This document shows, one piece after another, positions 14,641 through 55,169 of a stretch of 64,000 nt of DNA. The DNA is from an uncultured delta proteobacterium (lineage in GTDB: Bacteria > Desulfobacterota > RBG-13-43-22). Below the pieces are notes generated by a model that saw only the letters and a list, made by a program, of their open reading frames with translations, was not told the origin of the DNA and did not search any database. Both the position numbers and the translations under genes were made by a program. Positions within the stretch are counted from its first letter, which is position 1, and every line of letters starts with the position of its first letter. Location of the stretch: NCBI GenBank assembly GCA_963711835.1, contig CAVQFQ010000021.1:192001-256000 (forward strand). Reading direction: 5' to 3'.

Positions 14641-15798
14641 ATGGATGCCGATAAAAGCTGCTGTCTATTGCTTTATAATGAAGACTACCTGAAGTTCGAC
14701 TACGGGCCGTATCACCCCCTTCAAGTGGGCAGGTTGAAACTGACCCTGGACCTGATTCAAACCTATGGCCTGCTATCCGGTGAGAAAAGCCATCAGGAAG
14801 AAACCCGCCAGGCCACCCAGGAAGAAACCCTGACCTTTCATACCCCTGACTACTGGGAGGTCCTCCGGCAGGCCAATCAGGGCCATTCGGACCTGGACCT
14901 CTCCGCCTATGGGTTAGGCCCTGGAGATAATCCCATATTCCCCGGGGTGCTGGATTGGGCCCGCTTCTGCGGCGGCGGGGCCATCCAGGCCGGGGAATGG
15001 GTCGCTTCAGGCCGGGGTCGGATTGCTTTTCATATCGCCGGGGGCATGCATCATGCCCATAAGAACCTGGCCTCCGGTTTTTGTTATATCAATGATCCGG
15101 TCCTGGTCATCTTATATTTGCTCTCCCTTGGTAAAAAGGTGGCCTACATTGACATTGATGCTCATCACGGCGACGGGGTCCAGGAAGCCTTCTATCGAAC
15201 CAACCGGGTCCTGACCGTCTCCTTTCACCAGAACGGACAAACCTTGTTCCCCTCCACCGGTTTTGTGCCTGAAATAGGCCTCGGCCAAGGGTTGGGTTAT
15301 TCGGTCAATGTCCCCTTCTACCCCTGGACGGATGATGAGATTTTTATCTGGGCTTTCCATGAAGTGGTGCCGCCCCTCATCAAGACCTTTGATCCGGAGG
15401 TGATCGTCACCCAGTTGGGAGTGGATTCTTTTTACAATGATCCCCTGGCCAATCTTAACCTGACCAGCAGGGGATTCTGCTCGGCAATACGATTTTTCAA
15501 GGATCTCGGCCTGCCCTGGGTGGCCCTGGGAGGAGGGGGGTATCATCAGGTCAATGTAGCCCGGGCCTGGACTTTGGCCTGGTCCATCATGCTGGATCAG
15601 GAACTTAAACAGCAAAGGCTGCCTAAAGCGGTTCGGGAAACCTTGCGGCGTCTGAATTATGATGAAGAATGGCTCCGGGACGAAGACATCCCGGAAGACC
15701 CATTAAAAAAAGAGCGGGCCTTTCACGAGGCCCGAAGGACCGTCAAGGCCCTGAAAGAAACCATTTTCCCTCTGCTATTAAAGGTCTCAAAATATTAG
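14641..15798 (+). CDS. acuC: AcuC-like Zn-dependent deacetylase (HDAC family)
   Basis: GGMHHAH, SGFCYIND, DIDAHHGDG, GGGGY; last codons come from the adjacent repeat element. Confidence 0.88.
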   Translation: MDADKSCCLLLYNEDYLKFDYGPYHPLQVGRLKLTLDLIQTYGLLSGEKSHQEETRQATQEETLTFHTPDYWEVLRQANQGHSDLDLSAYGLGPGDNPIFPGVLDWARFCGGGAIQAGEWVASGRGRIAFHIAGGMHHAHKNLASGFCYINDPVLVILYLLSLGKKVAYIDIDAHHGDGVQEAFYRTNRVLTVSFHQNGQTLFPSTGFVPEIGLGQGLGYSVNVPFYPWTDDEIFIWAFHEVVPPLIKTFDPEVIVTQLGVDSFYNDPLANLNLTSRGFCSAIRFFKDLGLPWVALGGGGYHQVNVARAWTLAWSIMLDQELKQQRLPKAVRETLRRLNYDEEWLRDEDIPEDPLKKERAFHEARRTVKALKETIFPLLLKVSKY

Positions 15799-16077
15799 TG
15801 ACCACCAGGGACCGGGGGGTCTTCTTTTCTGTGGTTGTCCAAAGGGTAACTCATCGCCCTATCCCGGCCCGGACGGCTAAGTGGGTTAGGTGCAGGGCAT
15901 TCACTTAAGTCCATTTCGGGCATTCGTGTAGGCCTGTCTCTGGATTAAATCCCGAATTTGGCCCGGCAAAGAAACTTTAGTCTTGAAGGTGGACAACCCA
16001 GAAAAGAAGACCCCCCGGTCCCATTTAATGCAAGCTCATCAATTTCATGTCAAGACTATGATGAAACTCTTAATAAG
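15777..16077 (+). mobile_element. MITE-like element copy 1 with ~215-nt structured core (15808-16022)
   Basis: Ends TTAA-AGGTCTCA ... TGAAACTC-TTAA; near-identical inverted copy at 54882-55169; long internal inverted repeat. Confidence 0.8.
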
Positions 16078-33597: not shown

Positions 33598-33785
33598 AAA
33601 TTCATCTCTTCCTTCATTATAGGGTTTTAACTATGGGTTAGACCATCTGGTGGAGAACTATAAGCTATTGTCAAAAAAAGTGTCAAGCAAAAATGCCGGC
33701 CGACCTCCCCGGCCTCTCTTAATCGAAGAATCCGGGATCATAGGCCGCCGGGTCCGAATAGGACCGTTCCTTAACACATTGTTAT

Positions 33786-34083
33786 CGTTCAAAAGTTGTG
33801 GCATTATATTTGTGATACCCGATGGAAAGGGACCGGGGGTCTTGATTTCAAGGATTGTCCGCCGAAACGCCGGCAGCCTGACCCCGGGCAGGAAGTTTAT
33901 AATGGGGTTAAGAAACAGGCCAACACCAAAGCGATTTATCGGCTTGGGTGAATGCCCGGCTATTAACCAACTTAGAAATTCGGGCCGGGTTGGGGCTACG
34001 GATACCCTTTCGGGCAACCTTGGAATCAAGACCCCCGGTCCCCAAGTCAGTCAATAATACGCCAGTGCCATAACTTTTGAACG
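33786..34083 (-). mobile_element. MITE-like element copy 3: diverged ~214-nt core (33829-34042) inside different 18-bp terminal inverted repeats
   Basis: TIRs CGTTCAAAAGTTGTGGCA / TGCCATAACTTTTGAACG; core shares blocks with copies 1 and 2. Confidence 0.75.
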
Positions 34084-34854
34084 TTACCAAAACACTACTT
34101 GGGCTAAAGGGGCCGCTTCCAGTCCGGATTCTTGTAAGGCCTCTCTGATGGCCTTAGCCAGTTTCCAGGCCCCCGGCGTATCCCCATGGATACAAAAGGT
34201 ATCGGCTTTAAGGCTGATTTCCCGCCCCTCGATGGTTATTAGCCTGCCTGTTTTAAGAATACGGACGACCCTTTCTTTTACCTGTTCCACATCATGGATC
34301 AAGGCTCCGGCCATCGAGCGGGGCGCCAGCCGGCCATCATTTAAATAAGCCCGGTCCGGGAAGGCTTCCTGGGCTATCCTAACCCCGGAAGAGGCGGCCA
34401 TTTGGGCGCCCGGAGATCCGGAAAGCATCACCAGGATCAGCTCCGGATTAAAAATTCTGACCGCTTCAATCACTTCCCGGGCCGTTTTTTCATCCCGGGC
34501 CGCCAGATTATAAAGAGCCCCATGGGGTTTGACATGCTGCAAGATCATCCCGGAAGCCTTTGCGAAAGCATCCAGGGCCCCTATCTGGTATAAAAGGTAA
34601 TTTTTTACTTCACCGGGAAAGGTTTCCAGGTTCCGGCGTCCGTATCCGCAAAGATCCGGATAGCCGGGATGGGCACCCACGGCCACTCCGTGTTCCTTGG
34701 CCAGCTGAACCGTTTTGGCCATGATCATGGGATCACCGGCATGAAAGCCGCAGGCGATGTTGGCTGAGGTGACATACTCGATAATCTTCTCGTCCTCCCC
34801 GATCCGGTAAGAGCCGAAACTCTCTCCCATATCGCAATTGATATCTATCTTCAT
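34084..34854 (-). CDS. pxpA: 5-oxoprolinase subunit A (LamB/YcsF family)
   Basis: DINCDMGESFG, ANIACGFHAGDP, HVKPHGALYN, CIHGD. Confidence 0.93.
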   Translation of the reverse strand: MKIDINCDMGESFGSYRIGEDEKIIEYVTSANIACGFHAGDPMIMAKTVQLAKEHGVAVGAHPGYPDLCGYGRRNLETFPGEVKNYLLYQIGALDAFAKASGMILQHVKPHGALYNLAARDEKTAREVIEAVRIFNPELILVMLSGSPGAQMAASSGVRIAQEAFPDRAYLNDGRLAPRSMAGALIHDVEQVKERVVRILKTGRLITIEGREISLKADTFCIHGDTPGAWKLAKAIREALQESGLEAAPLAQVVFW

Positions 34855-54881: not shown

Positions 54882-55169
54882 CTTATTAAGGGTCTCATAA
54901 TTGAGGAGCTTGCATTAAATGGGCCCGGGGAGTCTTCTTTTCTGGGTTGTCCACCTTCAAGCCCAAAGCTTCTTTGCCGGGCCAAATTCGGGATCTAATT
55001 CAGAGACAGGCCTACCCTAATGCCCGAAACGGTCTTGAGTGAATGCCCTGCACCTAACCCACTTAGCCGTCCGGGCCGGGATAGGGCGATGAGTTGCCCT
55101 TTGGACAACCCCAGAAAAGAAGACCCCCCGGGCCCTGTTGGTCACTATTATTTTGAGACTCTTAATAAG
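54882..55169 (-). mobile_element. MITE-like element copy 2 with 215-nt structured core (54921-55135)
   Basis: CTTATTAAGGGTCTCA ... TGAGACTCTTAATAAG termini; reverse complement of 15777-16077. Confidence 0.82.

What the first reader, a model, noticed from the sequence alone, without database searches (positions are those of the whole stretch)
33786..34083. A ~215-nt covarying structured non-coding core in three copies, inside two different inverted-repeat shells
Seen: three cores of almost equal length at 15808-16022 (+), 54921-55135 (-) and 33829-34042 (-). Each is closed by a ~30-bp stem. Copy 1 is GGGACCGGGGGGTCTT-CTTTTCTG..TTGTCC / GGACAA..CAGAAAAG-AAGACCCCCCGGTCCC. Copy 2 changes an A-T pair to C-G (GGGCCC/GGGCCC). 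Copy 3 rewrites the middle of the stem on both arms (GATTCCAA/TTGAAATC). Interiors keep colinear blocks (AAAGGGYA, CCCGGCCCG, CTAAGTKGGTTA, GGGCATTCAC, GGCCTGT, GCCCGG) despite heavy divergence, and share no reading frame. Copies 1/2 sit in GGTCTCA/TGARAC ends; copy 3 sits in unrelated CGTTCAAAAGTTGTGGCA ends. Inference: selection acts on structure and fixed length, pointing to a functional RNA or ssDNA module. It may move on its own into small palindromes or be carried as cargo by different MITEs (e.g. a guide-like RNA of an unseen autonomous partner). I do not recognise it as a named RNA family.
Basis: partly seen in the sequence, partly recalled or inferred. Interest (0 to 1): 0.82.

Follow-up and report, generated by a model that had tools for sequence, protein, structure and literature searches.

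The report
Invertible cargo shared by unrelated mini-transposons
The three look-alike stretches are copies of a 215-base DNA cassette that sits, in either orientation, inside at least six different gene-less mini-transposon shells of an uncultured sediment bacterium and its relatives; it is likely a DNA element that helps these parasites jump, not a new RNA gene.

Summary
The genome has 106 near-full cores in four main shells; relatives add two more. Shell B (copy 3) has ISH6-type ends and 8-bp target duplications. Shell C (copies 1, 2) duplicates TA, from an empty orthologous site. The core lies in both orientations in all four shells and is practically never found without one. No transposase-bearing version and no Rfam match were found. 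The RNA reading is not supported: compensatory changes are confined to the terminal arms, interior folding is weak and strand-neutral, and orientation ignores transcription. Template switching between arms can explain both matched arms and flips. What stays unexplained: six near-invariant blocks spaced about 31.75 bp, three helical turns. Best reading, inferred: an exchangeable double-stranded DNA scaffold that aids end synapsis. The scan noted this family earlier elsewhere in this genome, and similar shared cores in other genomes.

The parts
33781..34088 (.). Copy 3, whole element: shell B MITE, 308 bp, ISH6-type ends
   Evidence: Termini lie 5 nt outside the CGTTC anchor, the offset that maximises the 8-bp duplication across 26 copies; sequence
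33773..33780 (+). Left 8-bp target duplication of copy 3 (decayed; 6 of 8 match the right copy)
   Evidence: family statistics
34089..34096 (+). Right 8-bp target duplication of copy 3
33781..33828 (+). Shell B arm Y (terminal repeat plus spacer)
   Evidence: arm profiles
34044..34088 (-). Shell B arm X; its terminal repeat supplies the stop codon of the LamB/YcsF ORF 34084-34854 (-)
33829..34043 (-). Core of copy 3 (215 nt), majority orientation for shell B
34012..34043 (-). Terminal arm 1 of the core, including block 1
33829..33860 (+). Terminal arm 2 of the core, including block 6
33982..33988 (-). Conserved block 2 (CCGGCCC)
33947..33960 (-). Conserved block 3
33916..33927 (-). Conserved block 4 (imperfect mirror of block 3)
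33884..33894 (-). Conserved block 5 (imperfect mirror of block 2)
15778..16073 (.). Copy 1, whole element: shell C MITE, 296 bp, flanked by TA on both sides; holds the stop codon of the histone-deacetylase-domain ORF 14641-15798
   Evidence: A relative's contig joins 15773 to 16073 with one letter between, so a net 298 bp is missing = element + TA
15808..16022 (+). Core of copy 1 (215 nt)
54886..55165 (.). Copy 2, whole element: shell C MITE, 280 bp (16-bp deletion in one arm); boundaries by analogy with copy 1
54921..55135 (-). Core of copy 2 (215 nt)

Best explanation
The core is a 215-bp cassette carried, in both orientations, between the ends of several unrelated MITE families, and it likely acts as a double-stranded DNA scaffold that helps a transposase supplied from elsewhere bring the two ends together. 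SHOWN: the mobile unit is shell plus core. Shells B and A have 8-bp target duplications. Shell C duplicates TA, shown by one empty site. The core is flipped in every shell, is shared between shells, and is not found alone. INFERRED step 1 (about 0.8): DNA-level template switching or recombination between the 30-bp arms keeps them matched, flips the interior, moves cores between shells that share the inner arm, and now and then deletes the core. INFERRED step 2 (about 0.5): the six near-invariant blocks spaced three helical turns apart are binding sites for an unidentified host or element protein on one face of the helix. They would bend or loop the 300-bp element into a synapsis-ready shape whatever the transposase family or the core's orientation. 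This would explain why unrelated shells keep the same cargo.
For: Unit of mobility. Shell B: 8-bp duplications with at most 1 mismatch in 21 of 26 copies (identity 0.90 against 0.52 for mismatched flanks); shell A: 14 of 21 (0.88 against 0.47). B ends and target match ISH6/ISDesp5. Empty site for copy 1. Both orientations: A 18/3, B 23/3, C 13/3, D 10/7. Recurrence: one well-supported pair holds one D copy of each orientation, and one well-supported clade holds 6 A-shell cores and 1 B-shell core. Arms are 96% identical within a copy but 70% between copies. Template switching is published as giving both arm homogenisation and spacer inversion (PMC8604942, abstract). Not solo: 172 of 220 cores have the same shell motif on both sides and 215 of 220 on at least one; background 2.7%. 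Conservation peaks at period 31.75 bp, reached by 0 of 1000 permutations at each of four block sizes, and repeats in both halves of the data: 31.75 in 19 cores of this genome, 32.0 in 25 others. Eight multi-copy length classes fall near multiples of 10.5 bp (best period 10.55, p about 0.002). No codon periodicity (p = 0.996). No orientation bias to transcription (35 vs 32, p = 0.81). Core-less shells arise with varied junctions yet remain the minority. Precedents: helical phasing between transposon ends (PMC3464196, passages) and a MITE interior that raises transposition (PMC3660474, passages).
Against: No binding protein is identified and no activity was measured. The same spacing is what a symmetric fold-back rod would give, so the 31.75-bp period does not separate double-stranded from single-stranded use. 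The phasing test is post hoc: I assigned the classes, and two are compounds of others. The 7 single-copy classes are off phase, and all 15 together give p = 0.23. The common +12 to +14 class is 2-3 bp off phase. Phasing could reflect the shells' own looping constraint, not the core. No 10.5-bp bending signal in GC or AA/TT content. Variants lacking one or two blocks occur in 7 and 5 copies, so the full array is not required. Shell E and an A-like shell also spread with other hairpin cargo. The trees are mostly unresolved, and 7 shell-C rows were mislabelled in one of them. No full-length IS with exactly matching ends was found for any shell.
Confidence: 0.5

Rival explanations
1. Passive cargo: the core is a stack of old nested MITE ends. 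Only total length and the ability to fold back matter; the blocks look conserved through shared ancestry and gene conversion among about 100 copies.
For: The interior is three nested imperfect inverted repeats. MITEs and small hairpins do nest here. Other hairpin cargo fills shell E at a constant 121 bp. Blocks 1/6 and 3/4 resemble ends of IS4- and IS1595-family elements of the same family of bacteria by eye; a profile search of four IS1595 ends found no match.
Against: Blocks stay near-invariant, mismatched positions included, across 44 cores of 64% mean identity while spacers change freely. Length stays within a few bases. Arm copying diversifies the terminal stem instead of freezing it.
Confidence: 0.2
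2. The core is a single-stranded DNA fold-back recognised by a TIRYT-type HUH (Y1) enzyme, which cuts and rejoins at the arm base, flipping it or moving it between shells, in the manner of REPINs and RAYTs.
For: 12 Y1_Tnp matches in the genome, several flanked by terminal repeats that share GGTCTT plus a T-rich run with the core arm (by eye only). The inner helices keep invariant single mismatches, a feature described for REP hairpins (10.1101/279083, section 12). The TIRYT end consensus GGGGWSAS (PMC3733652, passages) is one mismatch from the B and C arm start.
Against: No core within any of 38 Y1 loci. No solo cores. Arm starts of shells A, D and E do not fit the consensus. The arm-to-TIR likeness was not tested statistically. 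No GTAG foot.
Confidence: 0.18
3. The core is a functional structured RNA (guide-like, decoy or regulator) spread by MITEs.
For: Fixed length, a strong closing stem and conserved interior sequence. Invariant helices cannot show covariation, so the test has little power there. Contigs of an RNA library cover core sequence. One shell-C arm has a TTGACA box pointing into the core.
Against: The only pair at E<0.05 and all five pairing hits at E<1 lie in the terminal stem. 16 of 18 compensated pairs are in the terminal arm and none in the two interior helices. Interior folding median z is -0.7 on both strands. Arm mismatches show no G-U excess (14 G-T against 21 A-C). The core flips against any shell promoter and against host transcription. 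No variable guide-like segment and no partner gene. The RNA-library contigs cannot show strand, ends or transcription.
Confidence: 0.1

Closest known systems
ISH6 family (p-MULT 2), e.g. ISDesp5 of uncultured Desulfobacterium (PMC3942029, passages and Table S1 rows)
   Same: Shell B ends start GGTA.CGT as ISDesp5 does; 8-bp duplication; target consensus fits AANATNTT, and one copy has the very duplication listed for ISDesp5.
   Different: No transposase; the match to ISDesp5 fades after about 8 bases; the interior is the shared core. No cognate IS found in the family searches.
TA-duplicating IS630/Tc1-mariner-type MITEs (TA rule recalled, not read here)
   Same: Shell C has terminal repeats flanked by TA, and the empty site lacks element plus 2 bp.
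   Different: Cognate transposase not searched for by IS630 profile and not identified; rests on one empty site with two substitutions beside it.
Bacterial hairpin MITEs: Correia/NEMIS, Chunjie, bcr1 (PMC10969869 and PMC3184786, passages)
   Same: Size, intergenic position, long fold-back, high copy number. Correia elements invert; bcr1 shows compensatory changes.
   Different: In the passages read, each has one type of ends. Here one interior is shared by six shell types and flips inside them.
REPIN/RAYT and TIRtron/TIRYT systems (10.1101/279083 sections 12 and 14 part 1; PMC3733652 and PMC5581495, passages)
   Same: Palindromic non-coding repeat in a genome rich in subclass-2.1-like Y1 genes; arm resembles their ends by eye.
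   Different: Always inside shells, two of them with 8-bp duplications; never beside a Y1 gene; no GTAG foot.
Stowaway MITE Ost35 internal enhancer of rice (PMC3660474, passages); Mu gyrase site and Fis enhancer (recalled)
   Same: An internal sequence that raises transposition or synapsis in cis is what the core is proposed to work like.
   Different: Those are shown by experiment and serve one system; here the role is inferred and would serve several transposase families.

Membership tests
MITE (non-autonomous IS derivative) | Terminal inverted repeats | tested here: met
   Shells A, B, C, E, F; shell D shows none
MITE (non-autonomous IS derivative) | Target-site duplication | tested here: met
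   B 21 of 26, A 14 of 21; C by empty site; none detected for D (17 copies)
MITE (non-autonomous IS derivative) | Short, non-coding, many dispersed copies | tested here: met
   about 280-330 bp; 106 near-full cores; 0 of 104 placed inside a called gene; no codon periodicity
MITE (non-autonomous IS derivative) | Cognate transposase acting in trans | tested here: inconclusive
   No IS with exactly matching ends in searches of 21 family genomes for IS256, IS1595, IS1, DDE_Tnp_1 and UPF0236 profiles; only the loci returned were read
ISH6-type ends (shell B) | GGT-starting ends, 8-bp duplication of AANATNTT | tested here: met
ISH6-type ends (shell B) | ISH6 transposase between such ends | tested here: inconclusive
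   None found; no dedicated ISH6 profile was used
IS630-type ends (shell C) | TA duplication | tested here: met
   one empty site, net 298 bp; TA flanks in the consensus
IS630-type ends (shell C) | Ends match an IS630 element | not tested
   no IS630 profile search run
REPIN / TIRtron repeat | Copies flank the cognate Y1 gene | tested here: not met
   0 of 38 Y1 loci hold a core
REPIN / TIRtron repeat | Moves on its own, free of DDE-type ends | tested here: not met
   215 of 220 carry a shell motif
REPIN / TIRtron repeat | Cut by the HUH enzyme as single-stranded DNA | not testable with these tools
   needs biochemistry
Structured ncRNA family | Match to a known model | tested here: not met
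Structured ncRNA family | Covariation in interior helices | tested here: not met
   low power because the helices are invariant
Structured ncRNA family | Discrete stranded transcript | not testable with these tools
   only assembled contigs were served
Composite or autonomous element enclosing the core | Longer copy with a transposase, recombinase or RT gene of its own | tested here: not met
   The one long copy is an unrelated IS inserted with its own ends and a 9-bp duplication

The most novel reading that the evidence does not exclude
The core is a second-order parasite: an orientation-independent transposition enhancer made of six helically phased protein sites. It has no transposase and no ends of its own, hops between the MITE shells of unrelated IS families by recombination at its arms, and makes whichever shell carries it spread better. 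Shared cores noted by the scan in other phyla would then be independent solutions of one general rule of MITE success.
Probability: 0.3. Interest if true: 0.78.

Novelty: new variant of a known kind. Interest (0 to 1): 0.5.

Why it matters
How gene-less MITEs out-multiply the insertion sequences that feed them is an open question, and the usual picture is two ends around junk. Here one interior is kept by six end types, flips inside them and is swapped between them, with a sharp three-turn spacing of conserved blocks. That makes the idea of an interior enhancer directly testable in bacteria with a small construct: scramble it, shift it by half a turn, or move it between ends. It is also a caution for RNA discovery: covariation in long terminal stems of repeats can come from DNA copying between arms. 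I found no description of such a shared, invertible MITE core in nine literature searches, which cover open-licence papers only.

Tried and rejected
Rfam: nothing on a core. The transposase between two core halves at G000:C10:53696-55861 first looked like the autonomous parent; it has its own ends and a 9-bp duplication and interrupts the core. Relic of an IS4 transposase reading frame: one translated stretch looked like it (motif recalled), but the anchors were out of frame in the one row printed and there is no 3-nt periodicity (the script stopped after that row). IS256, IS1 and UPF0236 profiles: no match in this genome; IS1595 none; its two IS110 genes showed no shell ends by eye. IS4-family ends in relatives resemble shell A but duplicate 9 bp, not 8. 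No shell-A end among the p-MULT elements of PMC3942029 Table S1 for five exact strings. Shell-A end outside the family: 12 of 387 genomes match with one mismatch, near the reversed-pattern control; one is a real MITE with other cargo. Viral contigs: 0 cores; 44 shell-B-like hits, none paired; two further viral scans did not complete. Terminator role: convergent gaps 15 of 104 against 277 of 2067 (crude gene calls). Intrinsic curvature: no 10.5-bp signal. One search used a mis-registered structure and is disregarded. Expression: RNA-library contigs cover the core but cannot show transcription. The copy-3 site in relatives is a partial deletion, not an empty site. Supplement file 1 of PMC3942029 was not searchable, and bioRxiv supplements are closed; either could list matching ends.

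Full report
Observation. The three cores, their closing stems, the paired changes and the two shells are present as described. Copies 1 and 2 are 93% identical; copy 3 matches copy 1 at 73% over 134 nt. The host genes around them are ordinary: a histone-deacetylase-domain protein, a TPR protein, LamB/YcsF, cytochrome c3 and a radical SAM protein. Named records that hold the core are uncultured delta-proteobacterial (Desulfobacterota-type) genomes.

A large family. Iterated nhmmer finds 160 hits in the 3.9-Mb genome, 106 longer than 170 nt. The larger subfamilies are 88-99% identical inside and 58-84% between. With a probe from a relative, 14 of 21 family genomes match: this genome, 12 of 14 in the sister genus, one weak hit in 2 genomes of a third genus and none in 4 of a fourth. 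A covariance model gave strong hits in all 5 family genomes scanned and only single hits of at most 15.4 bits in 6 of 146 other genomes of the phylum. It gave 0 loci in viral contigs, and a similar pattern gave 109 in metagenomes.

The shells are MITE ends of different kinds. This genome has four main shells, A to D; relatives add E and F, and one decayed E copy is here too. Shell B (copy 3) shows an 8-bp duplication with at most one mismatch in 21 of 26 copies, and shell A in 14 of 21. The B ends and target consensus fit the ISH6 family and ISDesp5 (PMC3942029: passages; Table S1 rows; my consensus); the lead came from an earlier scan note. For shell C (copies 1 and 2), a contig of a related organism spans the copy-1 site and lacks a net 298 bp, which equals a 296-bp element plus TA. 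TA duplication is the IS630-type signature (recalled). Shell D shows neither terminal repeats nor a duplication. So the two shells in the window are not ends of one IS family.

The core flips, swaps and is lost, but does not travel alone. It lies in both orientations in A (18/3), B (23/3), C (13/3) and D (10/7) (only copies with both anchors were counted). Trees of the interiors are mostly unresolved, but one well-supported pair holds a D copy of each orientation and one well-supported clade holds six A-shell cores and one B-shell core (seven C rows were mislabelled there). Of 220 full cores with enough flank, 172 have the same shell motif on both sides and 215 on at least one; four of the other five are decayed shells by eye (11 cores with short flanks were set aside). 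Core-less shells exist (A 3, B 4, C 4, D about 10). They keep a stub of the arm and have varied junctions, as recurrent deletions would. No longer version with its own enzyme was found: the only long pair of ends around a gene is an unrelated two-ORF IS that inserted into a core with its own ends and a 9-bp duplication. None of 38 Y1-transposase loci holds a core.

RNA or DNA. Forty-four non-redundant cores (from 129, cut at 88% identity) align over 216 columns at 64% mean identity. A phylogeny-aware covariation test gave one pair at E<0.05 and four more pairing hits at E<1, all in the terminal stem. In 17 cores, 16 of 18 compensated pairs are in the terminal arm and none in the two interior helices, which are invariant and each keep one mismatch. 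The interior folds only slightly better than shuffles, equally on both strands (median z -0.7; 7 and 8 of 44 below -2). Orientation relative to flanking genes is 35 against 32. The arms are 96% identical within a copy and 70% between copies. Polymerase template switching between inverted repeats is published as causing both arm homogenisation and spacer inversion (PMC8604942, abstract only; yeast), so the stem covariation needs no selection on RNA. No Rfam family matches.

What is left to explain. Conservation along the interior peaks at a period of 31.75 bp, three helical turns; no permutation reached it at block sizes 1, 5, 8 or 10 (0 of 1000 each), and it repeats in both halves of the data. 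Block centres are at columns 32, 61, 92, 127, 156 and 186. There is no codon periodicity. The eight length classes seen in more than one copy (-53, -22, +10, +13, +44, +53, +62, +93) lie near multiples of 10.5 bp (p about 0.002), whereas seven single-copy classes do not, and all fifteen together are not significant. This test is post hoc and may reflect the looping constraint on short transposons in general (PMC3464196, passages) instead of the core itself.

Mechanism. Shown: shell plus core is the mobile unit, and the core is invertible, exchangeable cargo. Inferred: arm-to-arm copying drives matching, flipping, exchange and loss (about 0.8). Inferred more weakly: the phased blocks are protein sites that help bring the ends together, which would make the core worth keeping for any shell in either orientation (about 0.5). 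An interior that raises transposition is known for a rice MITE (PMC3660474, passages). Rivals are passive nested relics (0.2), a single-stranded substrate of the genome's TIRYT-type enzymes (0.18; 10.1101/279083 abstract, section 12 and section 14 part 1; PMC3733652 and PMC5581495, passages) and a functional RNA (0.1).

Novelty. As mobile DNA these are MITEs. The shared, invertible, phased core is the unusual part. Nine literature searches (listings only) and passages of two reviews (PMC10969869; PMC3184786) showed no such case. The scan has met this family elsewhere in this genome and similar shared cores in other genomes; those notes are unchecked leads, not support. Verdict: a real feature, a new variant of a known kind, interest 0.5.

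Noticed in passing
L032:307-2471 (G000:C10:53696-55861): A two-ORF insertion sequence (190-aa HTH-type ORF and a DDE_Tnp_1 ORF joined at an A-run, likely by frameshift) with its own ends and a 9-bp duplication, inserted into the extra hairpin of a long shell-B core. The DDE ORF matched no NCBIfam family.
   Followed up: partly
L001-L008 (e.g. G000:C17:498282-499148): About ten diverged TIRYT-like Y1 genes (30-75% identical to each other), many bracketed by terminal inverted repeats; similar numbers in five relatives.
   Followed up: partly
L142:1495-1851: In another family of the phylum, an A-like shell with an 8-bp duplication carries a different 345-bp fold-back cargo that contains a DnaA-box-like 9-mer (box consensus recalled).
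   Followed up: partly
G000:C15:49332, C17:370401, C21:303436; L075, L211, L219: Shell E also wraps several different REP-like doublets, nearly always at 121 bp between anchors; in L321 one such element is interrupted by an IS1634-family gene.
   Followed up: partly
window 34084-34086 and 15796-15798: The shells of copies 3 and 1 supply the stop codons of the upstream ORFs.
   Followed up: no
window 33717-34028: Related organisms in two runs lack this stretch but keep the right end of copy 3, so the insertion predates their split and was partly deleted.
   Followed up: partly
L035, L060, L061, L074, L243, L269 and G000:C17:14428-14695: Cores collect small GC-rich hairpin modules at fixed points, stacked up to +144 nt; the same hairpin replaces deleted parts in the short variants.
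   Followed up: partly
L219:843 and L255:200: A shell-E element inserted inside the end of a shell-C element: MITE-in-MITE nesting is common here.
   Followed up: no
G000:C14:19398-19614: The most diverged core in the genome, with flanks matching none of the six shells; possibly a seventh shell.
   Followed up: no
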